Shown one piece after another: positions 5,317 through 36,086 of a stretch of 60,252 nt of DNA. The stretch lies in assembly GCA_964577175.1 (NCBI GenBank), contig CAZNYC010000005.1, positions 1-60,252 on the forward strand, read 5' to 3'. Source of the DNA: an uncultured Anaerolineales bacterium (lineage in GTDB: Bacteria > Planctomycetota > Phycisphaerae > FEN-1346). The number at the start of each line of letters is the position of its first letter. The first letter of the stretch is position 1. A program made the translations under genes and the position numbers. Under the pieces are notes generated by a model, which saw only the letters and a list, made by a program, of their open reading frames with translations, was not told where the DNA came from and did not search any database.

Positions 5317-7371
<2,055 letters not shown>

Positions 7372-7970: not shown

Positions 7971-9410
7971 ATGCCCGACCCGTCCGCCCGTCCCCGGCCC
8001 GCCGCCGGTACCGTCCGGGCCCCCGTTGCGGCCGCCGCGGCCGCCGCCCTGCTCTTCCTGACCGCCACCGCCGGCGTCCGTGCGGGGGATTTCGTCTATC
8101 TCAACGGTCTCCTGCGCGACGGGTGGTACGGCGGCACGATTCACCTGGGCGGGGAATCGGCCACCATCTCCGGCTCGTGCGACCCCACGCCCCCCGGCGA
8201 CATCGACCGTGTCTGGTACGACTCGGCCGAGATCGACGAATGGCCCGATCCCGGCACCGCCACCGCCCAGTTCTACAACAAGGGGTGGGCTTCCGAGATG
8301 CCCGGCAACAGCAACCCCATGCTCGGCTGGGTGTACGAAGGGACGGCCGAGTTCGAGATGGAGGCTTACGTCACCACGTGTCCCCAGACGGGCGCCGGCA
8401 GCGCGTGGTTCTCCGCCGGGTACGCCGGCGGGCCCATGCACATCACCTCGACCACCGACGACGCCGGCCTCGAATGGGACCTCGTCGAGGATCCCGGGTT
8501 CGACCAGGGGTTCGGCGACTACGTCCGCGTCCACCTGCTGTTGAACCTCACGTTCAATATGTGGGACGACGGGGTCGAGCACGCCGTGCCGTACAGCGAC
8601 TTCTACACGGACCTCTCCGGCGGGACGTCGGGGCCCGGCGGCGCGGGCGACTTCGAGGTCCTCCGCAACGGCGAGACCGTCTGGACGGCGGGCCTGGACG
8701 CGCCCCTCGACGCCTTCGACCCGACCGCTTCCGTCTCGTTCGTGGCCCGTTACGGCGACGTGGTGGGCATCCGGGGCGGGGTCGGCGCGGGCGTCCGGGT
8801 GGACGACGTGTCCGTCGCGCCGCTCGAACCGGGGGAGTCGCTTCACCACTGGAGCAGCACGGCCACCCTGCACGGGAACCTGACGGTGCAGGACGTGCCC
8901 GGCACGAAGCCGTCGAAACCGCTCATGCCGCTGAACCTGTGGGAGCCGTTCCCGCACGAATTCGATTTCGTGGACGTCGGCGAGGACGAACTCGGCGTGG
9001 ACGACCCGCTGTGGTTCGCCACCCGAAACAAGCCGGAATACGTGATTGAGACCATCGATCCGTTCGGCCCGAACGAGACCATCGAGGCCGTCCGCCTGCC
9101 GGAACTCGGCGACGGCCTGTTCGAGGTCTGGGTCCTCGACCCCGTTACGGGCGAGGAAGTGCTGTTAGTGGACGAGGCCTGGGCCGACGAATTCATCGGG
9201 TTTCCGTGGGCGGTGGAGAAGGTCATCATCAAGGGCTTCGAGGACGACCCCGCGTGGCCGACGATTACCCCCGTGGGCCTGTACTTCACGCCGTGGAGCG
9301 AACCGGGGGTCTATATGACCGGGACGCCGGAGCCGGCCACGCTGGCGCTGCTGGCGGCGGGGGGTGCCGCCCTGCGCCTGCGGCGGCGCTCCGCTTCGCG
9401 TCGCGGCTAA
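7971..9410 (+). CDS. Secreted hypothetical protein with a PEP-CTERM sorting signal
   Basis: N-terminal signal-like segment APVAAAAAAALLFLTATAGVRA. C-terminal TPEPATLALLAAGGAALRLRRRSASRRG, i.e. PEP motif + TM + basic tail. The central 400 aa match no family I recognise. Confidence 0.75.
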   Translation: MPDPSARPRPAAGTVRAPVAAAAAAALLFLTATAGVRAGDFVYLNGLLRDGWYGGTIHLGGESATISGSCDPTPPGDIDRVWYDSAEIDEWPDPGTATAQFYNKGWASEMPGNSNPMLGWVYEGTAEFEMEAYVTTCPQTGAGSAWFSAGYAGGPMHITSTTDDAGLEWDLVEDPGFDQGFGDYVRVHLLLNLTFNMWDDGVEHAVPYSDFYTDLSGGTSGPGGAGDFEVLRNGETVWTAGLDAPLDAFDPTASVSFVARYGDVVGIRGGVGAGVRVDDVSVAPLEPGESLHHWSSTATLHGNLTVQDVPGTKPSKPLMPLNLWEPFPHEFDFVDVGEDELGVDDPLWFATRNKPEYVIETIDPFGPNETIEAVRLPELGDGLFEVWVLDPVTGEEVLLVDEAWADEFIGFPWAVEKVIIKGFEDDPAWPTITPVGLYFTPWSEPGVYMTGTPEPATLALLAAGGAALRLRRRSASRRG

Positions 9411-9542
9411 ACGGGCACACCGGCCGCCATTGTGAATGCGGGTCGGCATCGCCGTGGCCGTGGCCTGTTGCCCGCCTATCCGCTTGCACCCCCCTCCCCC
9501 ATATGCTACCGTCTGCCGACGCCTCAGACGGAGCCCGGCACC

Positions 9543-10514
9543 ATGCGCGTCACACGTCTTCAGCGCATCCTGAAACTCCTGACGCTCCTGGAGACCGGCC
9601 GGCCGTACAACGCCGCCCAGTTGGCCGAGGCGTGCGGGGTATCGCGGCGGACCGTCTACCGCGACCTCAATACGCTGGAGGCCGCCGGCATTCCCGTCTT
9701 CTTCGACCAGGGGTCCGGCCGGTACCAGGTGCACGAGACCGGCCTGATGCCGGCGGTGAACCTGCGGCTGGAGGAGGCGCTGGCGGTGGTCCTGCTGGCG
9801 GGGGAACTCGGGCGGCAGGGCGGCCTGCCCCTGCTGGAGCCCGCCCGCGACGCCGCCGCCAAGATCGAGGCCTCCCTGCCGCTGGGCATGCGGGCCCTCG
9901 TCGAGCGCCTCGCCCGGACCACCGTCGTCCGGACGCCGCCGACCGCCCGGCACCGCGGCCTGCACCCCACGTACCGCCTCGTCCAGGACGCCATCCGCAA
10001 GGGCCGGCCCCTGGAGGCCGTCTACATCTCGTTCCACGACGCGGGGCAGATCCATACCCGCCTGGAGCCGTACTGGCTCCTCTTCAACGACCGGGCGTGG
10101 TACGTCATCGGGCGGTCGTCGCGGCACAAGGAGGTCCGCACGTTCAAACTCGGCCGGTTCAAGGAATTGGAACCGACCGACGGGCGGTTCACGCGCCCGA
10201 AGGACCTGACGCTGGAGAAGCACCTCGGCAACGCCTGGCGGCTGATGCGCGGCGACACGGCCCATGCGGTCCATCTGAAGTTCAGCCCGCTCGTGAGCCC
10301 GAACGTGGCGGAGGTCACCTGGCACCGCACCCAGCAGGTGGCGTGGGACGAGGACGGGTGCGTCCACTTCCGCGCCACGGTGGACGGCCTCTCGGAGATC
10401 GTCTGGTGGGTCCTGGGCTACGGCGACCAGGTGGAGGTGCTGGCGCCGGCGGCGCTGCGGCGGCGCGTCGCCGACACCGCCCGCCGCATGCTGGCGATGT
10501 ACGAGGGGGCGTAG
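9543..10514 (+). CDS. HTH + WYL domain transcriptional regulator (YafY/PafBC/BrxR-like architecture)
   Basis: N-terminal MRVTRLQRILKLLTLLETGRPYNAAQLAEACGVSRRTVYRDLNTLEAAGIPV (DeoR-type HTH). Central region YWLLFNDRAWYVIG is WYL-like. ATG at 9543 preceded by GGAG. Confidence 0.75.
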   Translation: MRVTRLQRILKLLTLLETGRPYNAAQLAEACGVSRRTVYRDLNTLEAAGIPVFFDQGSGRYQVHETGLMPAVNLRLEEALAVVLLAGELGRQGGLPLLEPARDAAAKIEASLPLGMRALVERLARTTVVRTPPTARHRGLHPTYRLVQDAIRKGRPLEAVYISFHDAGQIHTRLEPYWLLFNDRAWYVIGRSSRHKEVRTFKLGRFKELEPTDGRFTRPKDLTLEKHLGNAWRLMRGDTAHAVHLKFSPLVSPNVAEVTWHRTQQVAWDEDGCVHFRATVDGLSEIVWWVLGYGDQVEVLAPAALRRRVADTARRMLAMYEGA

Positions 10515-10706: not shown

Positions 10707-12557
10707 ATGATTTATCGCCGCCCACGGCAACCGTCCAGAACCGCCGCCCTGCGCGTCGCCCTTGCGGCCGTCGTGCTGACGGGGGCCCTGCTCGGCGGCT
10801 GCGGCCGCGGCCACGGCACGGGCGTGGAGGAGGCCGGCGAGTCCGTCCTGGACGCCTGGCCGATCGAGGCCCCCGCCCTGCCGTCGGAGGGGGCGGCACC
10901 CGCCCTCGCCGGGCACCGTGGCCCGCCGCCGGCCGACTCGCGCCCCCTGGCCGCCTCCGAGGCCGGTCCCGGCCAGTCGGAAGCCCCACGCCCCACCCGC
11001 ACCGGCTCGCATCCGCCCGCCGCCGCGCCGGACGGCTTCGTCGATCCCATCACACGCGACGCCGACCGCCTGCCGATGACCCTGGAGGCGTGCCTGCGGC
11101 GGGCGCTGGCAAACAACCTGAAGATTCAGATCGCCCGCTTCGGCCCGGCCATCGCCGAGACTCACGTCTCTGAGGCCGAGGCCCTCTTCGACCCGGCGTG
11201 GTACATGAACAACGCCCTCGGCCGGGTGCGGCAGGACGCGGGCACGTTCCTCGCCGGCGCCACCACGCTCGTCACCAAGCAGTGGGACTTCGACACGGGG
11301 GTCGAGACGCTCCTGCCCACGGGGGCCACGGTCGCCCTCAGCCAGGACTGGACGTATATCGATTCCAGCAGCACCTTTTTCATGCCGAACCCGCAGTACG
11401 ACTCGGACCTGAACCTGGTGGTCCGCCAGCCGCTGCTCCGCGGGGCGGGGCTACAGGTGACGAAGAGCCCCATCGTCCTGGCGCGCCTCGACCACCGCGT
11501 CAGCCTGGCCGACTTCAAGGCCCGCATCATGGACACGCTGCTGGAGGTCGAGCGGACGTACTGGAACCTGGCGGTGGCCGAGGTCCGCGTCCGGGCGCTC
11601 ACCGAGGCGCTGGAGGCCGCCCGCGAGAACCGCCGCATCGCCCGCCGCCGCTTCGAGGAGGGCAAGGCCCGCCGCGTCGTCGTCAGCCTGGCCGAGAGCG
11701 CCGTCACGCGTCGGCAGGCGGACCTGGTGGCCGCCCGCCTCGTCCTGGCCCAGACGAGCGACCGGCTGAAGCGGCTCCTGAACGATCCGGCGTTGCCGCT
11801 GGAGGAACCCGCCCTCCTGACGGCCTCCGACCGGCCGCCGACCGAGCCCGTGCCCATCACCCGCCGCATGTACCAGGACAGCCTGCTGGCCGCCATGAAG
11901 CATCGGCCGGAGATGGACACCGCCTCGGCCGCCGTCGACCAGGCCAACGTCCTGGAACGCGTGGCCCGCAACGAGCGGCTGCCGCAGTTGGACCTGGCGG
12001 CCGGGTACACCCTGAACGGGCTGGACAGCGACCTGAGCCCGGCGATGCAGGAGGCGTTCACGACGACGTTCTTCGATTGGCAGGCGGGGCTGGAGTTCCG
12101 GATTCCCATCGGGAACCGGGCCCGCACCGCCGCCCACGAGCGGAGCCGCCTGGAGCAGGCCGTCGCCGTCCGCCGGCGGGAGGACACGCGGCAGCAGATT
12201 CTTCTGGAGGTCAGCCAGACGGTCCGCGACGTGGCCGCCGCCGAGGAGAGCATCCTGGCCACCCGGGCCGCGCGCGAGGCGGCCGAGCAGACCCTCCGCG
12301 ACCAGCGGGCGAACGTGGCGGCGGGGGCGGCCCTGCAGAAAGACCTCCTGGAGGCCCAGCGCGACCTGGCCGACGCCAAGGTCGACGAAATCCGCGCCAT
12401 GGCCGACTACATGATCGCCCTGGCGCTGCTGGAACGGGCCAAGGGTACGCTGCTCGCCTACAATAATATAGAGGTCATGGGGGAGCCGGCCCGCCCGGGC
12501 GGCATGCCGCCGGACCCTGCCGCCGGCGCGCCGGCGAACCAGGGAGACCATCGCTGA
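10707..12557 (+). CDS. TolC-family outer membrane efflux lipoprotein with a Pro/Ala-rich N-terminal linker of about 100 aa
   Basis: Lipobox ALLGGC. Outer membrane efflux protein pattern (LEACLRRALANNLKIQ, a repeated two-fold alpha-helical/beta structure, and RDLADAKVDEIRAMADYMIALALLERAKG at the C-terminus). No adjacent membrane fusion or inner membrane pump gene. Confidence 0.8.
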   Translation: MIYRRPRQPSRTAALRVALAAVVLTGALLGGCGRGHGTGVEEAGESVLDAWPIEAPALPSEGAAPALAGHRGPPPADSRPLAASEAGPGQSEAPRPTRTGSHPPAAAPDGFVDPITRDADRLPMTLEACLRRALANNLKIQIARFGPAIAETHVSEAEALFDPAWYMNNALGRVRQDAGTFLAGATTLVTKQWDFDTGVETLLPTGATVALSQDWTYIDSSSTFFMPNPQYDSDLNLVVRQPLLRGAGLQVTKSPIVLARLDHRVSLADFKARIMDTLLEVERTYWNLAVAEVRVRALTEALEAARENRRIARRRFEEGKARRVVVSLAESAVTRRQADLVAARLVLAQTSDRLKRLLNDPALPLEEPALLTASDRPPTEPVPITRRMYQDSLLAAMKHRPEMDTASAAVDQANVLERVARNERLPQLDLAAGYTLNGLDSDLSPAMQEAFTTTFFDWQAGLEFRIPIGNRARTAAHERSRLEQAVAVRRREDTRQQILLEVSQTVRDVAAAEESILATRAAREAAEQTLRDQRANVAAGAALQKDLLEAQRDLADAKVDEIRAMADYMIALALLERAKGTLLAYNNIEVMGEPARPGGMPPDPAAGAPANQGDHR

Positions 12558-12904
12558 CCCGCCCCAGCCCTCTCGCCGTCACCGTCGCTTTCTTCCACGA
12601 GCATCTACCGTTCCGGGAGATGGCGCCGGACGACGGCGGGCCCGACCGGGCCGCCCTCGTTTGCCGCACGGACGACCGCTAACCCACCCACGCCGGCGCA
12701 TTCCGAGTTTCCGTGGCAGGGCGGTGGGCGCGGCACGAAAATCCATCTTCACGGAAATTAAACAGCGCATCGAGCCTTACACCGCGTATAATAGTTGCGG
12801 GCGAGAAATGAAATGCCTGCAGATCGGCCGACCAGACGGCCGACACCAATAGCAGTGCCTCAGACATAGCCTGCCACGAGGGGTAGTTTCGGTCGGAGCC
12901 TTCC

Positions 12905-14740
12905 TTGACGACGCACGACGTGCATCCTCAGACTGTGACGGGAAGTCTCTGTCGGGTGCTGGCGACGGGAACCCTGGCCGCTCTTCTGCTGAGTGCCACC
13001 CTGCCGGCCGCAGAGACGCCACCCACCACGAACGCCGGCGACGCGTCCGGCCTGGGCGCGGTCTGGACGGACGCCGCCCACTTGTACGGCCCTGCCTCCG
13101 TCCGGAGCCGGGGCTTGCTCCTCGGGGCGCGGAACCCGAACGGCCCGAGTTGCGTCCGGGTCCGCGACGGGGCGCCGCTGTTCAGTGCCGCCGACGGCGG
13201 CGTGGGCACCCGCATGTGCCACTTCCTGGGCCACGCGGCTTCGGATCGCGGCAACCCGCGCGCCGAGTACATCTGGCAGCAGTCCACGCTCCGGGCCGCC
13301 TGCGAGCGACTGAAGCGCGAGAACCATACCGCCTACGCCCGGGCGGCGCGGCTGGCGCAAGGGGCCGGCCGCCTCGCCGACGGGCTGGCCGAGGCGTCCG
13401 CCCTTCCGGCCGACCTGAAACCGCTGGAGGTCAACGACGGCGGAACGCTTCTGGGCTGCACCGCCCGCCGGCTGGACGAGGCCATCGCCGGGCGCGACCT
13501 GGCGTCGGCCCGCGTCTGGGCCCGTGAGTTCCGCGCTGCGGCCGACCGCCTGGTCGATCTCCATCGCTGGGTCCATCTCATCATCGAGAACGAACTGGCG
13601 TCGCTGGCGTTCCAGAAGCAGTGCCGCCCGGTGTACATGAGCGTGGACCGCCCGTTCGAGATGACGGGGATGCTGGCGGACGAATCCGCCGCCTGTTTCC
13701 CCGGGCTCCAGAACGCGGTCTGCATGGTCTACAACCTGATGGAAGTGGAGCACCAGGCGGAGTGGCTGTTCGCGCGTCCGCCGGAGCCCTGGCGGCCGGC
13801 AGCCGAATCCCCGGCACCCACCGCCCCGCATCGCCTGCCGGCGGTCGCCTCGGCGGTCGGCATGCCCCCGCACCTCAGGGAGGCGTTCGCCGTCCTCCGC
13901 AGCCACCTCACGCCCGAGACCCAGGCCCTCTGGGACGAGGCCGCCGCCGCCCCCTACCACCGGACGTACCTCGCCAACGTCATTCATCGGTACCGGGCGG
14001 TCGGCGTGCTGGACGAGGTCGGCGACCTGCTGGAACGTTTCGACCGGGTCCAGGACGAGGCGACGGTCAATGCCCTGATGGACGTCCTGTTCTACCGCGG
14101 CGGTACGCCGAACGCCAACGCCTCGCCGGCCGAACGGTTCGATCCCCGGCTGATGCAGGCCTCCCGGACGCTCGCCGGCACGCGGGAACAGGTCCTCCTC
14201 GGCGCCCAGCACTTCACGCGGGCGTGGTTCGGGTCCTGGGACAACTACGAGGGCGGCAGCGACTCCCTCAGCCAGGCCCTCGACGACGGAAAACTCGACT
14301 GCATCGACGCCGCCAACATGATCGGGACGCTTTACCGCAACGCCGGCCGCGGCGGCTACTACGCCGTCCGCTGGGGCGCGGGCGTCGTCGGCCATTCCGT
14401 CTCCGGCGCCCTGCTCGACCGCGACGGGCAGCCCCTCATCGGCATCGTCGACGGTCTCGACCAACCGCAGACCGCCGCCGACCTCTGGCCCCACGCCTAC
14501 CGCAAGGGCAGCGAGTGGCCGAAGGGATACGTCGGCCTGCGGGCCCCCGTGTACGCGGTGGAAGTCCTCGGCCGCGGCCTCGACAGTTATCTGTGGTGCC
14601 AAGGTTTTATCATTCGAGGCAAGCATGCGGGCACGCTCGTGCGTTCGACGATTCCGTACCTGCCCGCCTGGACGCCGACGGCCTTCGCACAGCGGGAGCC
14701 GTCGCCCCCGCGGCCGAGTGCGCCCGTCCCGGCGCCGTAA
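12905..14740 (+). CDS. Secreted hypothetical protein, paralogue 1 of a tandem pair, with a putative C-terminal transglutaminase/papain-like Cys-His-Asp core
   Basis: TTG start preceded by GGAG. Signal-like LATGTLAALLLSATLPAAE. Colinear with 15048..16928. Conserved KLDCIDAANMIGTLYRNAGR...GHS...VDGLD. A perfect TATAAT at 12787-12792 lies upstream in an AT-richer patch. Confidence 0.7.
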   Translation: MTTHDVHPQTVTGSLCRVLATGTLAALLLSATLPAAETPPTTNAGDASGLGAVWTDAAHLYGPASVRSRGLLLGARNPNGPSCVRVRDGAPLFSAADGGVGTRMCHFLGHAASDRGNPRAEYIWQQSTLRAACERLKRENHTAYARAARLAQGAGRLADGLAEASALPADLKPLEVNDGGTLLGCTARRLDEAIAGRDLASARVWAREFRAAADRLVDLHRWVHLIIENELASLAFQKQCRPVYMSVDRPFEMTGMLADESAACFPGLQNAVCMVYNLMEVEHQAEWLFARPPEPWRPAAESPAPTAPHRLPAVASAVGMPPHLREAFAVLRSHLTPETQALWDEAAAAPYHRTYLANVIHRYRAVGVLDEVGDLLERFDRVQDEATVNALMDVLFYRGGTPNANASPAERFDPRLMQASRTLAGTREQVLLGAQHFTRAWFGSWDNYEGGSDSLSQALDDGKLDCIDAANMIGTLYRNAGRGGYYAVRWGAGVVGHSVSGALLDRDGQPLIGIVDGLDQPQTAADLWPHAYRKGSEWPKGYVGLRAPVYAVEVLGRGLDSYLWCQGFIIRGKHAGTLVRSTIPYLPAWTPTAFAQREPSPPRPSAPVPAP

Positions 14741-14755
14741 CAGCCTGTCCGAATA

Positions 14756-14833
14756 AGAGCCTATCCGAATAACCCCTCGTCGGCCCGAGGCCGCCACAGC
14801 CGGCCGAAGCCAGAGGGTGATTCGCATAGGCCC
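14756..14833. mobile_element. MITE-like element, family B, short copy (AGAGCCTATCCGAATAACCCCTC ... GAGGGTGATTCGCATAGGCCCT)
   Basis: Terminal inverted repeats and internal GTCGGCCCGAGGCCG / GCCGGCCGAAGCCAGAGGGTGATTCG are shared with the 161-bp copy at 37064-37224. Confidence 0.7.
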
Positions 14834-15047
14834 TGAGTACCCCGCGGCGGGGCCCCGCCGGCCGGTCGCTCCGAGGGGACGCCCCCCGGAGGCAATAATC
14901 GGGCGTGGGCGGCGCTGAACCCGATGAAACGCGCACGCACCGGCCGCGGCGCCTCCCCCCACGCCGCGAACCGTTCGGCTACGCGCGGCCGGCCCGGAGC
15001 ACCTGTCCGGACAGGCGCGAAGAGGGGCAGCGTTTCAGGAGCCGCCT

Positions 15048-16928
15048 TTGCCCACCTGGCGCGTATCTCGGCACCGGCGAGGGCCGTGGTGCGGCGCGAT
15101 CGCCGTCGCGATGGCCGTCCTGCTCGGTGGCTTGCACCAGGGCCCGGGGCCGCTCGCGGCCGCGCTGGCGTCCGAAACGCCCTCCCCTTTCACGCCTGCT
15201 TCCGCCGACGCCTCCCTGGCCGAGCGCTGGGCCGACATCGTTGACCTCCTCGGTGGGACCCGGCCCGCGAGCCGGCGGGTGCTGCTCGGCGCGCGCGACC
15301 CGGACGGCCCGAGTTGCGTCGAAGACCGCGCCGCCTTCGCCTTCCACATGCACCCGGACGGCGGTCCGGGCACCCGGCTGGCCTACCTGTATGGCCAGAG
15401 CGAACCCCGGCGCGGGTCGCCGCTCGCCGACTTCCGGTGGTACCAGGACGTGCTCCGCCGCTACAGCGAGACCGTCCACCGGCGGAACCGGGCCGTGTAT
15501 CCCCGTGCGCTGCGGTTGGCGGACGAAACGGCTGACCTGGCCCGCGCGCTGGCGGAGGCGCCCGCCTGGCCGGACGGTCTTCAGCCGGCGGAGGTGGCGA
15601 CGGCGGCAGACCGCCTTGGGCGGTGGTCCGCCCGGTTGGACGAAGCCATCGCGTCCCGCCGCCTGTCGGACGCCCGCCGCGCCGCCGCCGAACTGGCCTC
15701 GGCCGCCGCCTCCCTGGCGGACCTGCACCGGTGGCTCGACCTGCTGACGGCGAACCTGCTGGCGCAACTGGAGTTCCAGGCGCGGTGCCGGCCCGTCTTC
15801 ACGGCCTGGAACGATCGCCTCGATGTCCCCTACCGGCCGCAGCAGCACATCTCCGGGTTCCCCGGCGGGCGCGCGTGGGTGACGGTCAACCAGAACCTGC
15901 TGGAAGTGGAACACCAGGCGGAGTGGCTGTTCGCGTCGGCCCCACCGGTGCCTGCGGGGGCGGACACGGAAGCGGCCTCCGCCGGCGCGGCCGGGGCCGG
16001 CGTCGCTGCCGGCGTCGAGCCGCTCGCGGCCGTGCCGGCCGCCGTCTGGCTGCCGCCGGCGCTGCGGCCGACGTTCCTCCGCCTGCGCGAGGGGCTGGGC
16101 CCCGACGCCCGCCGCGCCTGGGACCACGCCGCCCGCGCCCCGTACCATCACGCGTACCTGGCGAACATGCTGTTCCATATCCGGCGCAGCGACGGCGAGG
16201 ACGTCGTGGCGGAGGTCCTGGCCCGGTACCAGGCCGCCCACCCGGAGCCCGCCACCGCCGATCTGATGGACGTCCTCTTCTACCGGGGCGGCGACCCGGA
16301 CGGCGGCGAGGCGTGGCGCGACCGGTTCCACCCGCAACTCCTGGCCGCCGCCGCCACACTCGCCGGCACGCGCGAGCAGGTGCTCCTGGGCGCCCAGCAT
16401 TACACGCGGGCGGTCTTCGGCGGCTGGCGCCGGTACGGGAAAACCGGCAGCGTCGAGGTCGCCCTCACCGAGGGCCGCTTCGACTGCATCGGCGCCACGG
16501 ACATCATCGGGTCGCTGTACCGCAACGCGGGGCGGCCGCGATTCTACAACGTGCACCTGGCGGCCGGGGGCGGCTCGCACACCCTGGCCGCCGCCGCCGT
16601 CGATACGGCGGGCGGCCCCGCCGTCGCCGTCGTCGACGGCCTCGACGCCGCCGGCCTCGAGGCGGCTCGATGGCCGGACGCGTTCTTCCACGACGGTGCG
16701 GGCTGGCCCGCCGGGTACACCGGTCCCGCGCCGCCGGTCCAGGCGGCGGAACTGTACACGCGCGGCATCGACAGTTACCTGTGGCTCGAAGGATACATCC
16801 TTCGCGGGCCGCGGGCCGGCTACTTCCGCGCCGCGACGGTGCCGTACCTGGCGTCGCATCCGCGGCCGACGGCGGCGCGCCTGCGCCGCGCGGTGTCCGA
16901 CCGGAGGGGCGCGGCGTCCGGGCCGTGA
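15048..16928 (+). CDS. Secreted hypothetical protein, paralogue 2 of the tandem pair
   Basis: TTG start. Signal-like RHRRGPWCGAIAVAMAVLLGGL..AAALA. Blocks shared with paralogue 1: LLGARDPDGPSCV, DLHRW, LLEVEHQAEWLFA, APYHHAYLAN, LMDVLFYRGG, LAGTREQVLLGAQH, FDCIGATDIIGSLYRNAGR, SHT and VVDGLD. Confidence 0.7.
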   Translation: MPTWRVSRHRRGPWCGAIAVAMAVLLGGLHQGPGPLAAALASETPSPFTPASADASLAERWADIVDLLGGTRPASRRVLLGARDPDGPSCVEDRAAFAFHMHPDGGPGTRLAYLYGQSEPRRGSPLADFRWYQDVLRRYSETVHRRNRAVYPRALRLADETADLARALAEAPAWPDGLQPAEVATAADRLGRWSARLDEAIASRRLSDARRAAAELASAAASLADLHRWLDLLTANLLAQLEFQARCRPVFTAWNDRLDVPYRPQQHISGFPGGRAWVTVNQNLLEVEHQAEWLFASAPPVPAGADTEAASAGAAGAGVAAGVEPLAAVPAAVWLPPALRPTFLRLREGLGPDARRAWDHAARAPYHHAYLANMLFHIRRSDGEDVVAEVLARYQAAHPEPATADLMDVLFYRGGDPDGGEAWRDRFHPQLLAAAATLAGTREQVLLGAQHYTRAVFGGWRRYGKTGSVEVALTEGRFDCIGATDIIGSLYRNAGRPRFYNVHLAAGGGSHTLAAAAVDTAGGPAVAVVDGLDAAGLEAARWPDAFFHDGAGWPAGYTGPAPPVQAAELYTRGIDSYLWLEGYILRGPRAGYFRAATVPYLASHPRPTAARLRRAVSDRRGAASGP

Positions 16929-17090
16929 GGCGCGCGGCCGTCTCGTCCCGCAACGCTCCCGCCGTCTGCTTTCCGCGCCGGTCCCCGGCACGTCCTTTTC
17001 CTGTGCGATGATTTGCGTTACGCTATGCGCCGGCGCGGCGGCGCCCGGCCCGCCGCGCCCGCCGCGCCCGATCCGTTCGAGGCCGCCGCC

Positions 17091-17888
17091 ATGACCGACC
17101 CCCGACTGCCGCGCTTCTTCGTCCCGCCCGACGTCGCCGGCGCCGGCGCGCCGGCGTCCGGGCGGCGCCTCGCCCTCCCGCCGTCCGAAGCGCACCATGC
17201 GGCCCACGTGCTGCGCCTCGCCGCGGGCGACGCCGTCGAGGTCTTCGACGGGCGCGGCGGGTCGGCGGCGGGGCGCATCGCCGGGGTGTTGCGCGGCGAG
17301 GTGACCGTGGCGATCGAGACCGTCCGCGCGCCGGCCCCGGCGCCGAAGCCCGCGCTCCGCCTGGTCTTCGCCGTGCCGAAGGGCAAGCGGCTCGACTGGC
17401 TCCTGGAGAAGGCGACGGAACTCGGCGCCGCGCGGCTGGCGCCGGTCCGTTTTGCGCGGAGCGTGGCGGGCGGCGAGGCGCTGTCCCCGGCGGCGCGGCG
17501 GCGATGGGACGCGCGGTGCATCTCGGCGGCGAAGCAGAGCCGCCGGACGCACCTGCCCGCGATCGAGCCGCCCGCCCCCCTGGACGAGGCGCTCGCCGGC
17601 GACGGCGCCGCAGGGGCGGGCATCTTCGGCGACACGGGGGCGGGCGCGGCGCCCGTCCTCGGCGCGCTCACCGCCCGGCCGCCGGCGTCCCAGATTGAAA
17701 TGTTCCATATATATGTAGGCCCGGAAGGCGGGGTGACCGAGGCGGAGCGCCGCCGGCTTACGGCGGCCGGGCTCGTACCGGTCCGCCTGGGCCCCACGGT
17801 GCTGCGGACGGAGACGGCGGCGGCGGCGCTGCTGGCGGTGGCGACGGCGTGGCGCGATGCGGGATCGGGCGCGCCGACGGCCCAATAA
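17091..17888 (+). CDS. rsmE: 16S rRNA (uracil1498-N3)-methyltransferase
   Basis: PRFFVPP N-terminus, HHAAHVLRL, VFDGRGG, LLEKATELGA, and IYVGPEGGVTEAE...GPTVLRTETAA at the C-terminus. ATG at 17091 inside ORF 17013..17888. Confidence 0.85.
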   Translation: MTDPRLPRFFVPPDVAGAGAPASGRRLALPPSEAHHAAHVLRLAAGDAVEVFDGRGGSAAGRIAGVLRGEVTVAIETVRAPAPAPKPALRLVFAVPKGKRLDWLLEKATELGAARLAPVRFARSVAGGEALSPAARRRWDARCISAAKQSRRTHLPAIEPPAPLDEALAGDGAAGAGIFGDTGAGAAPVLGALTARPPASQIEMFHIYVGPEGGVTEAERRRLTAAGLVPVRLGPTVLRTETAAAALLAVATAWRDAGSGAPTAQ

Positions 17889-17992: not shown

Positions 17993-18223
17993 CTCTTAGC
18001 ACGTCCCGCTGGTAAACCGGTCGTAAAACGCGGCTGAGCGCTCTACAGGGCCACGCCGGCGGGTGGCAAACAGGACCAGGGAAGTGCAGGACACATCCTC
18101 ATCGTACACGACGACCGCATATCGCGAGAAAGGCAACCGGCCGCGGGGCCGGAGGCTGCGCATGGATACAGAAAGTCTGCACAACGGACACGTACCGTCA
18201 CGTCTCATTCGAGGGAGAAAGTC

Positions 18224-21200
18224 ATGACTAGCCGAAGCCATTGGAAACTGCTTGGCGCCGCGGTGGTTGCGCTGGCTGTGGTGACAGCGTTTGGCGCGAT
18301 GCGGGCCCCGGCCGCCACGTACACGTGGCAGGGCGGGGATTTCGACGAGCCCACCTCGTGGACCGTCGCGGACAACTGGTTTGAGGCCGGCGGACCGCCC
18401 TCCCTGGGCGACACCGCGGTCTTCACCACGAACCCGTTCGAATTCTCCGTCGACCTCGGCACGGCGATGCAAGCCGTCGATGCGCTGGAGTTCACGGGCC
18501 TCGGCTTCGGCGAAGACTACACGATCGCGAACGGCACCCTGGGGCTCGGCTTCCCCGGCGCGAACGCCGCCCTCACGCAGGACGCCACCGTGGACGCCGA
18601 CACCGTCACCACCATCAGCGCCGGCGTGGTCGAGAACACGATGGTGCCCGGCCTGGAATTGAGCGTCGAGGCCGGCACCCTGCGCCTGACGGGGCAACTC
18701 GGCGCGTCGACCGAGAAGTTGACGGCGATCGTTCCGGCGGGCGGCACGAGCGTGGCCTCCGGCGCCACCCTCGCCATCACCAACGCCACCACCGAGGCGG
18801 CCACGAAGAACTATGTCGACGGCACCATCGCCGTCGCCGGCCGCCTGGAGGGTGTCGGCAACGCCCTCGATGCCGCCACCGTCGAACTCCAGGACGGCGG
18901 CGCCCTGCACATGACCGGCACGGTGGAGACGCTCGTGCCCGGCCTGCTCCGCAAGCGCTATGAAGGCGGCGTGGCCGGTGGCTCCGGATGGGATCCCTGG
19001 GACACCCTCGCCGCCCAGACCCCCGTCGAAGTCGTGGCCGATACCAACGGCATCAACGACGGCTCCGACGGCGACGCCGGCACCGTCCCGTTCCTTGATC
19101 CGCCGTCCGACCTGGGCAACTACGCCATGACGTGGGAAGGCTTCATCTACCTCGAAGCCGGCCAGGACGGGGTCTTCCAACTCCGGTCCCGCGCCGACGA
19201 CCACCACCGCGTCTGGGTTAACGATCTCGCCGAAGGCAACCCCGTCCTCTCCCACAGCGGCGCCAACAACACGCAGAACACCACGTATGACTTCAGCGGC
19301 ATGGCCGAGATGTACATTCCCTTCCGCGCCGGCTTCACCGAAGGCGGCGGCGGCGACTACATGTGGTTCGCCTGGGACGGCGGCACCGGCACCATCACCG
19401 ACGACACGATCGCCGACGGCCCCGGCGACCCCCTCGCCGGTAACCAGTTCTGGCACCTCGACGAGGTGACCCGCCCCGCGGCGACCGACACGAACCTGGC
19501 CCTCGTCGCCGGCGCCACGGGCACCCTCGAGCCCACCGGCGACGTGGCCCTCGGCTCGCTGACCTTCAACGACGGCAGCACCCTGAACGTCGCGCCCACC
19601 GGCAACGTGGCCGACGCCCTCTCCTTCACCGACACGACGATGGCCAGCGGCACCGATCCGGTCAGCGGCACCCTCAACACGCCGATGGACGTTCCCGCCG
19701 GCCCACTGACCCTGGGCGATCTGGACGGTGTGTCGAACAGCGATTCCACCGTCAACCAACTCACCAAGGACGGCGCCGGCAAGGTCACCTTTACCGACGT
19801 CAAGAGCGCCGACGACTGGAACGCCACCCTTGAAGTGACCGTCAATGCGGGCGAACTGGCGATGACCGGCCAGGTCGGGAACCCGATCCCGGCCGAGGAA
19901 GACATCATCACCTTCCAGAACTCGAACGTGAACGCGGGCGGCACCCTGTCGGTCACCAACTACAAGGACGGCGACGCACGGAACAAGGTGGCCGGCTCGG
20001 TCAACGTCAACCCGGGCGGCACGCTGGTCTTCGGCGGCAAGTCGGGCGCCTCGTCGCTCGGCTCGGCCGACGTCGTCCTGGACGGCGGCAAGGTCGTCGT
20101 CGAAGGCCTCGGCGGCGCGGTCTTCCAGGAAATCGCCATCGACAACGACACACCGTCCGACAACGAAGGCAGTTACACCTTCGACGGTACCACCCATCGC
20201 GTCGAGGGCAGCGGCGACGACATCTGGAACAACGCCGACGACTTCTACTACGTGTACCAGGAGGTGCCGGAAGGCGCCGCCATCGACGTCTCGGCCCACG
20301 TGCTCGGTTTCGACGGCGGCACGAACGGGTGGCGGAAGGCGTTCCTGATGATCCGCGACGACCTGACCGCCCCGTCGGCCTTCAACGGCATCATGCAGTC
20401 GGCCAACGACAACGTGGGCGGCCAGTGGCGCGACTCCGCCGGCGCGGGGGCCGCCAGCGGGTACCACGGCGGCGACCCCGAGCCGACCTGGATACGCATC
20501 GTCCGCGAGGCCGGCGCCGATACCGCGTCCTACTACTTCAAGCAGAACGAGGCCGATCCCTGGCAACTGGAGGGCACCCACGCCGTCTCCATGACCGACG
20601 TCGACTACATCGGCATGGGCGTCACCTCGCACAACGAGGGTGAGTTGACCACCGGCCTGTACCAGAACGTCGAGGGCTTCATCTACGACATGCAGTTGGC
20701 GGACCTCGGCAACGACGTCACCATCAGCGGCACGAGCGAGATCGAGACCCTGGGGCCGGTGCTTCTCGGCGACGCCACCGTGGCGGACGCCACGGCCCTG
20801 ACCGTGACGAGCCCGGCCGACGGCCTCGTGGCCTTCGCCACCAGCACGTTCGGCGACGGTGCCTCGGCCGCCGGCGCCACCCTGAATCCGACGACCGGCG
20901 ACCTGTACCTCGGCGAGGTGAACGACCAGGGCCAGGCCCTGACCCTGACCAAGACGGGCGCGGGCGCCCTGGTCTTCGACCAGACCGATGTCGCCAACAC
21001 CACCGCCAACACCACCGTCGACCTGCAGGAAGGCACCGTGGGCGCGGGCGGCACGGCGGGCGGCGTCAATCCGCTCGGCGGCGCCGTCGTCCAGATGACC
21101 GGCGCCGACACGGCCGTCGTCCTCACGTCCAAGGGCGGCGACTATGCCCTTGACAACGCCTTCGACTTCGACGCCAGCGGCCGGCTGGAAGCCCATACGT

Positions 21201-24200
21201 TCGGCTTCAGCGGCGTGGCGGAGAACGCCACCATCACCCTCGATAACCCCACCGCCGGCGGCTTCGATATCGCCACCGGCGAGACCCTGACCGTCTCCAC
21301 CGCCGACGGCTACACGCTGAACCTGGACAACGAGGTCAGCGGCGGCGGCACATTGCTCGTGGAGAGCGGGAAAGTGACCGTGGCCAACGACGGGGTGCTC
21401 GACGGCGGCACGCCGCTCGAGATCGGCCCGTTCGGCTTCGTGCACTTCATCGTGCCGCCCGCCGTCCAGCCCCCCATCGGGGTCGGCGGCGGCGGCGCCA
21501 TCGGCGGCGACCTGGGCGGCGTCGACATGGGCAACGTCGACTTCGGGCCCGGCGGCATCGTGGTCCAGGACCCCGCCACGGGGAACCATCCCACGTTCGC
21601 CCAGCAGGGGGCCTGCGACCTCTACCTCGGCGTCACGGACGTGGCCGGCACGTATGACGGCATCGGCTGTAACGAGGGCGGGGGCGACATCAGCGGCGAC
21701 GGGCCGGCCTACGAAGGCACGTACCGCGGTGTGGCCCTGGACCCGATGTTCGCCACCGGCGACTTCACCGGCACGATCGGCGAGGCCGAGCAGGATCCGC
21801 CGACGTACCATTCGAGCGGCTACGAGGTGCTCATCCGCGACGACTGGACGTTCGACGGCGCCACCTTCGACGCCGAGGCCGGCCACCCGGTCACCGTCAT
21901 CGGCGAACCCGGGAAACTGGCCACGTTCACGACGGCCATCAACGGCACGGCCGACACCTTCATCCGCGAGGGCATCGCGCCGGTCGACGGCGGCAGCGCC
22001 GGCGACATGAGCAGCGACATCCTCGCCTTCGCGGGCGCCGACGTCCTCGCCGGCGACCGCATCATGACGCTCAAGAACGGCGTCGCGACCTTCGCCACGG
22101 GCGGCAACAACGGCGTGGCGGCCGACGCCACGCTCGAGATCGACCAGAACGCCACCCTCTTCCTTACCAGCGCCCCGGCCAACGGGACGCTCCTCATCAA
22201 GGAGGGCGGCTACCTGCGCTTCAGCGACCAGGCCCAACTCGCCGGCGGCGCCACCTTCGAGTACGAGGACGTGACCCCGGACGCCAATCCCTGGGTCATC
22301 AACGACCAGGACATCTTCGACTGGGTCGCCGAGGGGTTCCCGACCGACAAGGCCGTCAACATCGTCGCCAGCGCCGGCCGCTTCGACCTGGGCCTGTTCG
22401 TCGGCCAGAACTCCGTCATCACCCTGCCGTACAGCGAGAGCCGCGACCTGCGCCAGCACGGCGCCAGCGATCCGTGGAGCATCCAGATTCACGACGACCT
22501 GAAGGACGGCAGCGCCGACACGGTCCGCATGGCCGTCGCCGAGGGGCAGACCATGCAGGTCCACAGCAACACGGACCTGTCCAACGACCTGGGCGACGCC
22601 GACAGCCGCGCCACCCTCGTGGTCGGCTACGGGCCGGGCGAGACCCTGCCCTGGCTGCCTTCCGGCGGCGGCTCGCTGAATTACCAGCAGGTGCCGATGA
22701 CCGGCTCGACGTACTTCCGCCTCGGCGAAGGGGAGGACGGCCACCTTCTGGGCGGCCTGGACGTCCGCTCCGGCGAGGCCCGCTTCGGCGATAACGACCC
22801 CAACAACGGCCAGCAGGCGGTCCTGGTGGACATCAACGGCCCGGTCACCGTCCGCGAGGGCGCCAGCCTGGTCCTCCGCGCCACGCAGAACACCGACTAC
22901 ACGCCGCAACTCGAGGCCGGCACCTGGGGCACCACCCAGACCTGGGAGAAGGACTCCTACGTCGAGTGGATGGTCAAGAACGACACCGGCGACGTCCGCG
23001 AACTGACCCAGGCCGTCATCGTCGGCGGCGGGGCCGCCGACGCCTCCGAGGCCACCCACTTCAACCTCGACCACTACGAGCAGCAGGGCGGCTCGGACCA
23101 GGGCCCGGACGAAGGCTACCTGCTGACCGACGTCACGATGCAGGACGGCGCGTACCTGGAACTGGAACAGCATAATTTCAGCGACAAAGGCGCCCGCCGG
23201 CTCCACCTGAAACTTGAAGGCACCGCGACCGCCGCCGGCAACGACTTCTCCATCAGCGGTGAGGCGGCCGTGCCCGGCACGCCCGTCACGCTGCTCGTCG
23301 GCGACGCGGCGCATCCCGACCCGACCTTCACCCTGGGCATCACCGGCCCGCTGAGCGAGGACGTCACCCTCCTCGACAACCAGGCCGAGAACACGGACCA
23401 CTGGCTCTACGACCTGTATTACGGCAAGTACGCCAACGGCGTGGACGAGGACGGCGACGGCGATCCGCTCCGCGAGGAATGGGGCGCCGGCAGCACGCTC
23501 GAGATCGGCGGCCAGCACATCATCAACGTCCGCGTCGATGAGGACGGCGACGGCGCCAACCCGCTCAACACCAACGTCTTCGCCGGCACCGTCCGCGTCA
23601 TGAACAACGTCGAGCCCGGCACCCTGCCCCAGTGGGACGAGGTCGAGAAAAACCTGGGCGCCGTCTGGGACGCCCGGATCCGCTCCGACCGCGATGCCAA
23701 CCGCGGCCGGCCGCGCCAGTTGGTCGAGTTCAAGGACCTCGTCCTGGCCGACGGCGCCCTGGTTACCACCGGCGACGACGACGCCAACTCCATCTCGGAC
23801 ATCACCCTGGAAGGCCCGACCGGCTACTACTGGAACAACGCCGGCCGCGACCACTTCGTCCGCGACGTGACCGGCACCCCGGGCAGCGTCCTGGTACTCT
23901 ACCCGGATAACGACCTCGACATGCTGGGCACCATCACCGACACCGACCTCATGGCCGTCGGCGACGACGACATCTGGCTCCAGCCCGGCTTCGACCTCGG
24001 CGGCAACACGTTCACCTACCAGTTGAGCGACCAGTTCAACGTCATGACCGACCCCGGCGCCGGCACGATCAACATCGGGCCGAACATGCAGGGCGAGAAT
24101 AACTTCGACGGCGACCATAACGGCCTCGAGATCTTCCACGGGGCCAACAACGACGACACCATCGGCGAGACCGGCTGGGGCGACGACCTGGTCATCACCC

Positions 24201-30817: not shown

Positions 30818-30861
30818 AACGACTCCCGGGCCGGTCTCCGGCCCGGTGCCAACCCACAACG

Positions 30862-30898
30862 AAGAGGCCGCTCCGTGCGGAGCGGCCTCTTCTCTTTC
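30862..30898 (+). terminator. Rho-independent terminator of the giant gene
   Basis: AAGAGGCCGCTCC-GTGC-GGAGCGGCCTCTT stem followed by the pyrimidine/T-rich CTCTTTCC, 45 nt after the stop codon. Confidence 0.7.
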
Positions 30899-30905
30899 CA
30901 GCCCC

Positions 30906-30979
30906 GTGCCACGGCCGGCCTTGTCCGGCCGTGCATCCCGCAGGCCCTCATCGCGGCGGGGCAAGACCCGCTGTGGCAC
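30906..30979. repeat. Two CTTGYC-loop hairpins (30906-30933 forward, 30953-30979 reverse)
   Basis: GTGCCACGGCCGG-CCTTGT-CCGGCCGTG and GCGGCGGG-GCAAGA-CCCGCTGTGGCAC read directly. Confidence 0.55.
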
Positions 30980-31081
30980 ATCCGTTTCGAGAGTGCCGGC
31001 ACCCGTTCGTGCGCGGCGGGTCGGGAGAGGGCCGGAGGGATGCACGCCCGAGCGGGAAGGAAACGTCCACAGCAAAAAACG

Positions 31082-36034: not shown

Positions 36035-36086
36035 AGCGCCATCATGATACAGCGCCCAGCCGGCGCCGACAATAGACTTCAAGCGG

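What the first reader, a model, noticed from the sequence alone, without database searches (positions are those of the whole stretch)
12905..16928. Tandem paralogous secreted proteins of unknown family with a putative transglutaminase/papain-like Cys-His-Asp core
Two same-strand genes of 611 and 626 aa each begin with a signal-like hydrophobic segment. They align colinearly end to end by eye, with near-identical blocks:
- LLGAR(N/D)P(N/D)GPSCV
- DLHRW
- N-L-(M/L)-EVEHQAEWLFA
- APYH..YLAN
- LMDVLFYRGG
- LAGTREQVLLGAQH

I recognise no characterised family. In the C-terminal region of about 130 aa, both proteins keep an invariant Cys in the context (L/F)DCI.A..IIG.LYRNAGR. A His follows 31 residues later (GHS / SHT), and an Asp 19 residues after that lies in (I/V)VDGLD. 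The order, the spacing and the Cys context resemble the catalytic core of transglutaminase-like cysteine peptidases. In P1 the codons are Cys 14300-14302, His 14393-14395 and Asp 14450-14452. In P2 the Cys codon is 16485-16487.

The genes are separated by a 307-bp spacer containing a MITE. They lie downstream of an orphan TolC-like gene and a WYL regulator. The pair could be a duplicated secreted protein-modifying or protein-cleaving enzyme.
Basis: partly seen in the sequence, partly recalled or inferred. Interest (0 to 1): 0.7.

Follow-up and report, generated by a model that had tools for sequence, protein, structure and literature searches.

The report
Exported transglutaminase-fold cysteine enzymes, tandem pair
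Two neighbouring genes encode exported proteins of an unannotated, Planctomycetota-restricted family: a large new helical domain joined to a small Cys-His-Asp domain whose predicted fold matches the periplasmic protease LapG, so they are most likely envelope or surface proteases with unknown targets.

Summary
P1 (12905-14740) and P2 (15048-16928) are colinear paralogues, 44% identical over 580 residues (E 1e-133). All quoted motifs and codon positions are correct.

No Pfam, NCBIfam, PADLOC, PHROGs or PDB sequence match exists. The family is small, about 200 clusters at 50% identity among 1.84 billion proteins. Every named member is a Planctomycetota hypothetical protein.

Cys is invariant in 47 of 47 homologues, His in 45 and Asp in 46. 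The triad persists in relatives only 16-24% identical.

AlphaFold (pLDDT 89.5, pTM 0.90) gives a roughly 400-residue all-helical domain plus a roughly 135-residue alpha+beta domain. Cys opens a helix, and His and Asp sit on the next two strands.

Foldseek with the C-terminal domain alone hits LapG first (probability 1.00, TM 0.40-0.44). After it come 3isr, CPR-C4, vasohibins, transglutaminases, menin and XPC, all transglutaminase-like folds.

The proteins are exported transglutaminase-fold cysteine enzymes, most likely proteases.

Gene context is not conserved across the family. TolC/WYL adjacency is confined to one subclade, so the substrate remains unknown.

This is a new family with a new architecture inside a known superfamily. 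Interest is moderate.

The parts
12905..14740 (+). P1 coding sequence, 611 aa, TTG start, stop included
   Evidence: ORF list. GGAG at 12895-12898 lies 6 nt upstream of the TTG. The N-terminal extension is conserved in homologues P0003, P0007 and P0008. High GC3 coding signature.
12905..13012 (+). P1 export signal, residues 1-36: basic residue R17, hydrophobic core VLATGTLAALLLSATL, then PAA|E. Cleavage site approximate.
   Evidence: Hydropathy heuristic. An N-terminal hydrophobic segment is present in 68 of 95 full-length family members. No SignalP was available.
13043..14245 (+). P1 all-alpha domain of about 400 residues, family-specific, with no convincing structural match
   Evidence: AlphaFold model: helices span residues 33-425 of P0001 with pLDDT mostly above 90. 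The full-length Foldseek search gives only weak helical-bundle hits for this part. Conserved blocks are LLGxRDPNGPSC, DLHRW, EVE(H/R)QAE, R308 and FYRGG.
14267..14671 (+). P1 transglutaminase-like alpha+beta catalytic domain, residues 455-589
   Evidence: AlphaFold secondary structure. Foldseek with the domain alone hits LapG at E 3.5e-3, probability 1.00, TM 0.40-0.44, followed by 3isr, CPR-C4, VASH1/2, TGase, menin and XPC.
14300..14302 (+). P1 Cys466 codon (TGC), predicted nucleophile, in the invariant D-C motif
   Evidence: Conserved in 47 of 47 homologues and invariant in distant relatives. It is the first residue of helix 449-462 in P0001 numbering.
14393..14395 (+). P1 His497 codon, predicted general base
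   Evidence: Conserved in 45 of 47 homologues; one of the two exceptions, P0040, diverges from the family right after the Cys motif. Invariant in alignment A3. It lies at the start of strand 479-489.
14450..14452 (+). P1 Asp516 codon, predicted third triad member
   Evidence: Conserved in 46 of 47 homologues and in at least 90% of alignment A3. It lies directly after strand 492-498.
14755..14834 (.). Short copy of a MITE/REP-like palindromic repeat in the P1-P2 spacer
   Evidence: blastn matches 37062-37101 at 97.5% and 37182-37221 at 95%. The terminal inverted repeat AGAGCCTATCCGAATA / ATTCG(G/C)ATAGGC(T/C)CT was read.
15048..16928 (+). P2 coding sequence, 626 aa, TTG start, stop included
   Evidence: ORF list. 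AGGAG at 15037-15041 lies 6 nt upstream of the TTG. 44% identical to P1.
15048..15170 (+). P2 export signal, residues 1-41: basic RVSRHRR, hydrophobic core, then ALA|SE. Cleavage site approximate; Sec versus Tat unresolved.
   Evidence: Hydropathy heuristic. Sequence read.
16485..16487 (+). P2 Cys480 codon, predicted nucleophile
   Evidence: aligned with P1 Cys466.
16578..16580 (+). P2 His511 codon
   Evidence: aligned with P1 His497.
16635..16637 (+). P2 Asp530 codon
   Evidence: aligned with P1 Asp516.

Best explanation
P1 and P2 are exported two-domain enzymes, located in the periplasm or at the cell surface. They belong to an unannotated family found only in Planctomycetota. A C-terminal domain of about 135 residues has the transglutaminase-like (papain-related) fold. 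It carries a Cys-His-Asp triad: C466/H497/D516 in P1 and C480/H511/D530 in P2. By analogy with its closest structural neighbours (LapG, CPR-C4 and the vasohibins, all proteases), the thiolate of the Cys attacks a peptide or isopeptide bond. The His acts as general base and the Asp orients it. The N-terminal helical domain of about 400 residues packs against the catalytic domain as one globule. It probably forms the substrate-binding cleft or gates access to it. The likely substrates are envelope or surface proteins. The tandem pair comes from an old duplication, and both copies keep the triad, so both are probably active with diverged specificity. Shown here: paralogy, conservation of the triad, the predicted fold, and the N-terminal export features. 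Inferred: catalysis, protease rather than transferase chemistry, the role of the helical domain, and the substrate class.
For: - **Paralogy:** 44% identity, E 1e-133.
- **Triad conservation:** Cys 47/47, His 45/47, Asp 46/47. D-C, the Gly at Cys+15 and His are invariant, and Asp is at least 90% conserved, in relatives at 16-24% identity.
- **Full-length model:** pLDDT 89.5, pTM 0.90, with Cys at the helix N-terminus and His and Asp on the next two strands.
- **Domain-only model:** pLDDT 82. Foldseek puts LapG first (E 3.5e-3 to 5e-3, probability 1.00, TM 0.40-0.44, 17-19% identity). Next come 3isr, CPR-C4, VASH1/2, MOA, TGase 4xz7, menin and XPC. The full-length search already had 3isr and the vasohibins on top.
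- **What LapG is:** a periplasmic BTLCP with a C-H-D triad whose C135A mutant is inactive (PMC3032545). It has a transglutaminase fold (PMC4359373).
- **Shared spacing with factor XIIIa:** the family-invariant Arg at Cys+12 and Gly at Cys+15 match C314, R326 and G329 of factor XIIIa.
- **Export:** 68 of 95 full-length members have an N-terminal hydrophobic signal-like segment. Another 13 of 95 instead carry a multi-pass membrane anchor with about 4-6 predicted hydrophobic segments.
- **One globule:** the last 40 residues or so of the catalytic domain lose confidence when modelled without the helical domain.
- **Old duplication:** L005 carries one P1-type gene (54% to P1, 43% to P2) and one P2-type gene (42% and 49%) in the same order.
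Against: - No sequence or profile method links the family to any transglutaminase-like family. Pfam, NCBIfam and PDB searches and hhalign against factor XIIIa are all negative.
- Foldseek E-values are modest (about 4e-3) and TM-scores are below 0.5.
- Triad geometry could not be measured.
- The same fold supports other chemistries: transglutaminase, deamidase, amidase and N-acetyltransferase.
- It also occurs in non-catalytic scaffolds such as menin and XPC.
- No conserved gene neighbour points to a substrate.
- Signal peptides were judged by a hydropathy heuristic only.
Confidence: 0.6

Rival explanations
1. The domain is a true transglutaminase or protein deamidase. It would cross-link or modify Gln residues of envelope or surface proteins rather than cleave them.
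For: Same fold and triad. Transglutaminases (4xz7, TglA 9crn) are among the Foldseek hits. The Cys+12 Arg and Cys+15 Gly spacing is shared with factor XIIIa.
Against: The best-scoring structural neighbours are all hydrolases: LapG, 3isr, CPR-C4 and the vasohibins. Transglutaminases rank lower, at E 0.12 or worse. Nothing else discriminates between the two chemistries.
Confidence: 0.15
2. P1 and P2 are functional analogues of LapG. In this reading they release or process a giant surface adhesin, the 4197-aa PA14/PEP-CTERM protein at 18224-30817. That adhesin would be held at the TolC-like outer-membrane protein encoded just upstream.
For: LapG is the top structural hit. In the Lap system a periplasmic BTLCP cleaves the N-terminus of a giant adhesin (PMC3032545). 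The order WYL, OEP, one to three family genes is kept in the window, L001, L005/L006, L011, L012 (no WYL on its short contig), L014, L022, L025 and L029. RsmE and the giant protein follow where the contig reaches that far: the window, L001, L005/L006 and L011, and RsmE alone in L012.
Against: The block sits among housekeeping genes (LigA, RsmE), so the synteny may only reflect relatedness of these genomes. L010 keeps WYL and two family genes but has no OEP. More than 30 loci have no OEP, WYL or giant gene within the available flanks. No ABC transporter, membrane-fusion protein or LapD-like gene is adjacent. The giant protein has an N-terminal signal and a PEP-CTERM anchor rather than a type I secretion architecture.
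Confidence: 0.1
3. The transglutaminase-like domain is a non-catalytic binding scaffold, as in menin or XPC/Rad4. Alternatively it acts on a non-protein substrate, for example as a peptidoglycan amidase or an acyltransferase.
For: Menin, XPC, Tse1 and a viral acetyltransferase-like protein appear among the weaker fold hits.
Against: Inactive scaffolds normally lose the triad. Here Cys, His and Asp are the most conserved positions of the whole superfamily, down to 16% identity. Acetyl-CoA-dependent chemistry is implausible outside the cytoplasm (inference).
Confidence: 0.1

Closest known systems
LapG / BTLCP family (bacterial transglutaminase-like cysteine proteinases, DUF920/PF06035; PDB 4FGO, 4FGP, 4FGQ, 4U65)
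   Same: Best structural match of the catalytic domain: probability 1.00, TM 0.40-0.44, 17-19% identity. Same Cys-His-Asp order. Both are exported to the periplasm. An acidic residue immediately precedes the nucleophile; for LapG this detail is from my memory and was not verified here.
   Different: No HMM match. LapG is a single domain of about 180-190 residues in the solved chains, whereas P1 and P2 add a helical domain of about 400 residues. No LapD partner, LapA-type substrate or type I secretion ABC/MFP genes lie nearby. The calcium site could not be assessed.
Transglutaminase-like cysteine peptidases of the PF01841 type (for example 3ISR from Cytophaga hutchinsonii) and animal transglutaminases (factor XIIIa)
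   Same: Second-best fold hits. The pattern Cys, 11 residues, Arg, 2 residues, Gly, followed by His and Asp on strands, is identical to factor XIIIa C314/R326/G329.
   Different: Not detected by the Pfam models or by hhalign. The Cys-to-His spacing is 31 residues against 59 in factor XIIIa (C314 to H373; residue numbers from established knowledge, sequence confirmed). The surrounding domains are different.
Vasohibins (VASH1/2 with SVBP) and CPR-C4
   Same: Transglutaminase-like cysteine proteases in which helical elements flank the catalytic core. They recur in both fold searches.
   Different: Weak scores (E 0.05-1). The vasohibins are eukaryotic cytosolic tubulin carboxypeptidases that need the SVBP chaperone. 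No sequence similarity.

Membership tests
Transglutaminase-like / papain-like cysteine peptidase superfamily | Nucleophilic Cys at the N-terminus of an alpha-helix, followed by His and Asp on successive beta-strands of an antiparallel sheet | tested here: met
   AlphaFold full-length model (pLDDT 89.5): C449 is the first residue of helix 449-462, H480 lies in strand 479-489, and D499 lies directly after strand 492-498, in P0001 numbering. The domain-only model has the same topology.
Transglutaminase-like / papain-like cysteine peptidase superfamily | Overall fold similarity to solved members | tested here: met
   Foldseek against the PDB returns LapG, 3isr, CPR-C4, VASH1/2, MOA, TGase, menin and XPC as the top hits, with the best at E 3.5e-3 and probability 1.00. 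TM-scores of 0.40-0.44 are borderline.
Transglutaminase-like / papain-like cysteine peptidase superfamily | Conservation of the Cys-His-Asp triad across homologues | tested here: met
   Cys 47/47, His 45/47 and Asp 46/47. Cys and His are invariant and Asp is at least 90% conserved in relatives at 16-24% identity.
Transglutaminase-like / papain-like cysteine peptidase superfamily | Triad side chains within hydrogen-bonding distance in three dimensions | not testable with these tools
   Model coordinates are not exposed; /data holds FASTA files only.
Transglutaminase-like / papain-like cysteine peptidase superfamily | Sequence-profile match to a curated model of the clan (PF01841, PF06035, PF13369, PF13471, PF14822 and others) | tested here: not met
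   No Pfam or NCBIfam hit at E up to 10 for P1 or P2. No such hit at E up to 1 for 10 distant relatives. PDB profile searches are negative. hhalign against the factor XIIIa core gives probability 0.2.
BTLCP / LapG family | Match to the family HMM (PF06035/DUF920) | tested here: not met
BTLCP / LapG family | Small single-domain periplasmic protein with an N-terminal signal peptide | tested here: not met
   Signal-like N-termini are present. However, the proteins are 611 and 626 aa and carry an extra helical domain of about 400 residues.
BTLCP / LapG family | Genomic or functional partnership with LapD (c-di-GMP receptor), a LapA-type adhesin and a type I secretion ABC/MFP/OMP set | tested here: not met
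   Of these, only an OEP/TolC-family gene is adjacent. The other neighbours are WYL, RsmE, LigA and PEP-CTERM proteins. OEP adjacency is confined to one subclade.
BTLCP / LapG family | Calcium-binding site next to the active site and calcium-dependent activity | not testable with these tools
   This needs coordinates or biochemistry. Only the invariant Asp preceding the Cys is seen.
Any cysteine peptidase | Cys-dependent hydrolysis of a peptide bond | not testable with these tools
   Requires biochemistry.

The most novel reading that the evidence does not exclude
The family is the catalytic heart of a Planctomycetota-specific envelope-remodelling system. In this reading a LapG-like protease is fused to a new helical sensor or substrate-selection domain. 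It would release or mature giant PEP-CTERM/PA14 surface adhesins, and in one clade it would work together with a dedicated TolC-like outer-membrane protein. That would be a convergent counterpart of the proteobacterial Lap system, built from different parts.
Probability: 0.1. Interest if true: 0.7.

Novelty: new variant of a known kind. Interest (0 to 1): 0.45.

Why it matters
Planctomycetota have unusual envelopes and very large repertoires of giant surface proteins, yet almost nothing is known about how those proteins are processed. This work defines an unannotated family that only fold comparison can place in the transglutaminase-like cysteine peptidase superfamily. The family is often multi-copy or in tandem arrays. 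It comes in a signal-peptide form and a membrane-anchored form. It gives a concrete set of candidate extracytoplasmic proteases with named catalytic residues to mutate. It also contributes a 400-residue helical domain with no detectable relative. The finding would justify a new Pfam family or clan assignment. It does not overturn any concept.

Tried and rejected
**Sequence searches, all negative for P1 and P2**
- Pfam and NCBIfam hmmscan at E up to 10 gave nothing relevant.
- PADLOC and PHROGs gave nothing.
- phmmer and profile searches of PDB sequences gave only coiled-coil or chance hits.
- Pfam scans of 10 distant relatives and of 10 longer members found no transglutaminase model. They returned only weak DUF4118 hits and one Laminin_G_3 fusion.
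- hhalign of the C-domain profile (A4) against the factor XIIIa core found no signal.

**Attempts that failed or added nothing**
- The search for homologous proteins with the C-domain profile A4 returned nothing at all, not even family members. I treat this as a tool limitation, not as evidence.
- A regular-expression search for a classical transglutaminase core (C..FA...GIPAR) found none in 747 kb of fetched loci. I had hoped to build a bridging profile from such a hit.
- Foldseek against the viral BFVD library was uninformative.
- The promoter and terminator scan of 12400-17100 found nothing above shuffled expectation.

**Rejected hypotheses**
- Operon or functional linkage with TolC and WYL. 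It is conserved only in one subclade, and OEP is absent from L010 and from more than 30 other loci.
- A defence-system reading suggested by the WYL neighbour. P1 and P2 have no PADLOC hits. The WYL gene also sits next to LigA (and PolX in some loci), which fits a PafBC-like DNA-damage regulator better.

**Literature tools**
- Literature search timed out in every attempt. Three look-ups by identifier also timed out and one paper was not held.
- Only two LapG papers could be read.
- I could therefore not check whether this family has been described in the literature.

Full report
**1. Observation**

The + strand carries two ORFs at exactly the stated coordinates: 12905-14740 (611 aa, P1) and 15048-16928 (626 aa, P2). 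BLASTP aligns them colinearly over 580 residues at 44% identity, E 1e-133.

The codon positions are also exact:
- P1: Cys466 at 14300-14302, His497 at 14393-14395, Asp516 at 14450-14452.
- P2: Cys480 at 16485-16487, His511 at 16578-16580, Asp530 at 16635-16637.

The Cys-to-His and His-to-Asp spacings are 31 and 19 residues in both proteins.

Each TTG start is preceded by GGAG or AGGAG at a distance of 6 nt. The N-terminal peptide of P1 that the database gene call omits is conserved in homologues (DVHP..TG..CRLLA.GT). The long forms are therefore the real ones.

Both proteins begin with a basic stretch followed by a 15-20 residue hydrophobic segment.

The 307-bp spacer holds a copy of about 80 nt of a palindromic element bounded by terminal inverted repeats. 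A copy of about 165 nt lies at 37062-37225. The 'MITE' remark is thus also correct.

**2. The family**

No curated library recognises P1 or P2. Pfam and NCBIfam were searched at E up to 10, and PADLOC, PHROGs and PDB sequences were searched too.

The word-indexed search found 50 homologues at 34-86% identity. All come from metagenomes or MAGs. The few that carry names are 'hypothetical protein' of Planctomycetota, Phycisphaerales or Sedimentisphaerales.

An exhaustive HMMER scan of 1.84 billion cluster representatives found only 200 clusters at E up to 1e-3.

A scan of 185,579 species genomes found 42 loci. Most records are titled Planctomycetota of various orders. Ten carry the title 'uncultured Anaerolineales' and one 'Candidatus Binatia'; I suspect these titles mislabel Planctomycetota bins, but I did not check.

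Distant relatives at 16-24% identity, where named, are again Planctomycetota hypothetical proteins. They too have no Pfam match.

**3. Conservation**

In the 47-sequence alignment the counts are:

| Residue | Conserved in |
|---|---|
| Cys | 47 of 47 |
| Asp preceding the Cys | 47 of 47 |
| His | 45 of 47 |
| Asp of the triad | 46 of 47 |

One sequence, P0040, accounts for one of the two His exceptions and for the single Asp exception. Its sequence loses similarity to the family right after the Cys motif, which suggests a frameshift.

When the distant relatives are added, the only invariant columns are R308, D448, C449, G464 and H480. W205, G383, A417, D499, P567 and Y568 are at least 90% conserved. 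The proposed triad is therefore the most conserved feature of the whole superfamily.

The invariant Arg at Cys+12 and Gly at Cys+15 (LYRNAG) have the same spacing as C314, R326 and G329 in the factor XIIIa core. I recalled that sequence and confirmed it as a 100% match to PDB entries. This is motif-level agreement only. hhalign sees nothing.

**4. Structure**

AlphaFold2 with the family alignment gives a confident full-length model: pLDDT 89.5, pTM 0.90.
- Residues of about 30-430 (P0001 numbering; add 17 for the 611-aa ORF) are entirely helical and include two helices of more than 40 residues.
- Residues of about 438-565 form an alpha+beta domain.
- C449 is the first residue of helix 449-462. 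H480 sits in strand 479-489. D499 follows strand 492-498 directly.

This is the canonical arrangement of papain-like and transglutaminase-like enzymes (established knowledge).

Foldseek with the full model already ranked the putative cysteine protease 3ISR and the vasohibins first, although weakly (E 0.12, probability 0.89).

A model of the C-terminal domain alone (pLDDT 82) gave a clean list:
- LapG in four entries: E 3.5e-3 to 5e-3, probability 1.00, TM 0.40-0.44, 17-19% identity.
- Then 3ISR, CPR-C4, VASH1/2, the MOA protease domain, bacterial transglutaminases, menin and XPC.

All of these have the transglutaminase-like fold. LapG is a periplasmic BTLCP with a Cys-His-Asp triad, and its C135A mutant is inactive (PMC3032545). 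It has a transglutaminase fold with calcium bound near the active site (PMC4359373).

The last 40 residues or so of the domain lose confidence when the helical domain is removed (one search compared). This suggests that the two domains form one globule.

The helical domain itself has no convincing structural match in the PDB.

**5. Localisation**

Among 95 full-length members:
- 68 have an N-terminal signal-like hydrophobic segment.
- 13 belong to a longer subfamily of 700-790 aa with an N-terminal multi-pass membrane anchor of about 4-6 predicted hydrophobic segments. Two of the ten longer or partial members scanned give weak DUF4118 hits.
- 14 have neither. At least one of these, P0034, is a truncated gene call, and it is the database version of P2.

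Two independent architectures thus point to an extracytoplasmic catalytic domain. This is a heuristic inference. SignalP was not available, and Sec versus Tat is unresolved for P2, whose signal contains RHRR.

**6. Gene context**

In the window the gene order is: LigA (minus strand), a PEP-CTERM protein, a WYL/WCX regulator, an OEP/TolC-family gene, P1, P2, RsmE, and a 4197-aa PEP-CTERM protein. In the related locus L001 the counterpart of the giant protein has PA14 domains.

The block WYL, OEP, one to three family genes recurs in L001, L005/L006, L011, L012 (which lacks WYL on its short contig), L014, L022, L025 and L029. RsmE and the giant protein follow in the loci that extend far enough.

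Other loci break this pattern:
- L010 keeps WYL and two family genes without OEP.
- L003 and L013 have a tandem pair next to PolX and LigA.
- A Sedimentisphaerales-like subclade places the gene between LacI and a rhamnogalacturonan lyase.
- More than 30 loci, and the distant relatives, have unrelated neighbours.

No ABC transporter, membrane-fusion protein or LapD-like gene lies beside the OEP.

I conclude that the TolC/WYL adjacency reflects local synteny within one lineage, not a conserved functional module. The WYL gene is more plausibly a PafBC-like regulator tied to the DNA-repair genes next to it. That last point is an inference.

**7. Duplication**

Tandem pairs occur in nine other loci or locus groups: L003/L004, L005/L006, L008, L009, L010, L013, L019, L022 and L036. 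Triplets occur in L011 and L029. Several MAGs also carry unlinked copies.

In L005 the first gene is P1-type (54% to P1, 43% to P2). The second is P2-type (42% to P1, 49% to P2). P2 clusters with P0040, P0033 and P0035, whereas P1 clusters with P0002 to P0010. The P1/P2 duplication therefore predates the divergence of these genomes. Both lineages retain the triad.

**8. Interpretation**

The best-supported reading is that P1 and P2 are exported cysteine enzymes of the transglutaminase-like fold. They are most likely proteases, because the closest structural neighbours (LapG, 3ISR, CPR-C4, the vasohibins) are proteases or putative proteases.

The new helical domain probably shapes or gates the substrate cleft. 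The substrates are probably envelope or surface proteins but remain unidentified.

Rival readings cannot be excluded without biochemistry:
- transglutaminase or deamidase chemistry;
- a LapG-like adhesin-release role tied to the TolC-like protein and the giant PEP-CTERM protein;
- a non-catalytic scaffold, which the extreme conservation of the triad makes unlikely.

**9. Comparison with known families and novelty**

The proteins work like BTLCP/LapG-type and PF01841-type transglutaminase-like cysteine peptidases. They fail the sequence-model test for every such family. Their architecture also differs: a 400-residue helical domain, and signal-peptide or multi-TM variants.

This is a new family with a new architecture inside a known superfamily, so I rate it a new variant of a known kind. 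Interest is moderate.

I could therefore not check whether the family has been described in a paper. The libraries searched, with models dated up to 2025-2026, do not contain it.

Noticed in passing
window 14755-14834 and 37062-37225: Two copies of a small palindromic MITE/REP-like element bounded by terminal inverted repeats (AGAGCCTATCCGAATA ... ATTCGGATAGGCTCT). The copy in the P1-P2 spacer lacks about 80 internal bases. The long copy starts at the stop codon of the PstS-like gene (36219-37064). There is also a 16-nt direct duplication at 14738-14753 and 14754-14769.
   Followed up: partly
window 18224-30817 (+), with antisense ORF 17996-31075 (-): A giant 4197-aa protein with an N-terminal signal and a C-terminal PEP-CTERM anchor. 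No Pfam hit in its first 1000 residues. Its counterpart in L001 has PA14 domains. The even longer antisense ORF of 4359 aa looks like a by-product of the high G+C content: its translation is Gly/Ala/Val/Arg-rich and it did not pass the GC3 coding filter, unlike the + strand gene.
   Followed up: partly
P0059, P0069-P0074, P0078, P0081-P0089 (family members from elsewhere): A subfamily of 700-790 aa replaces the signal peptide with an N-terminal multi-pass membrane domain of about 4-6 predicted hydrophobic segments. Two members give weak DUF4118 hits. This subfamily is a membrane-anchored version of the same enzyme.
   Followed up: partly
P0041 (643 aa, 2-kb contig): One family member has a Laminin_G_3 (concanavalin-like lectin) domain in place of the first half of the helical domain. 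This could be a real fusion or an assembly chimera.
   Followed up: no
L011 8001-13437; L029 4202-9635: Three tandem copies of the family gene lie downstream of WYL and OEP. Several MAGs also carry two or three unlinked copies, for example UBA2266 (L034, L035, L039). The family is prone to expansion.
   Followed up: partly
window 9432-10514 (+) with 5317-7368 (-); L003, L005, L010, L013: The WYL/WCX regulator sits near NAD-dependent DNA ligase LigA. In related loci, family PolX polymerase and LigA lie close by. This resembles PafBC-type DNA-damage regulators rather than a partner of P1 and P2. PADLOC matches only generic WYL models.
   Followed up: partly
window 7971-9410 (+): A 479-aa secreted protein with a C-terminal PEP-CTERM sorting signal lies immediately upstream of the WYL gene. 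A PEP-CTERM protein occupies the same position in L001, L010 and L011.
   Followed up: no
L050 6586-9650: In a distant relative (P0170) the family gene overlaps the stop codon of an upstream 471-aa gene of unknown function. Both lie in a cluster with FHA-domain and beta-propeller proteins, next to an MlaDEF-like transporter. This context differs completely from the window.
   Followed up: no
window 33484-40178: A sensor histidine kinase (sCache-HAMP-PAS-HisKA) is followed by a PstS/PstC/PstA-like phosphate ABC transporter. These are ordinary housekeeping genes.
   Followed up: no
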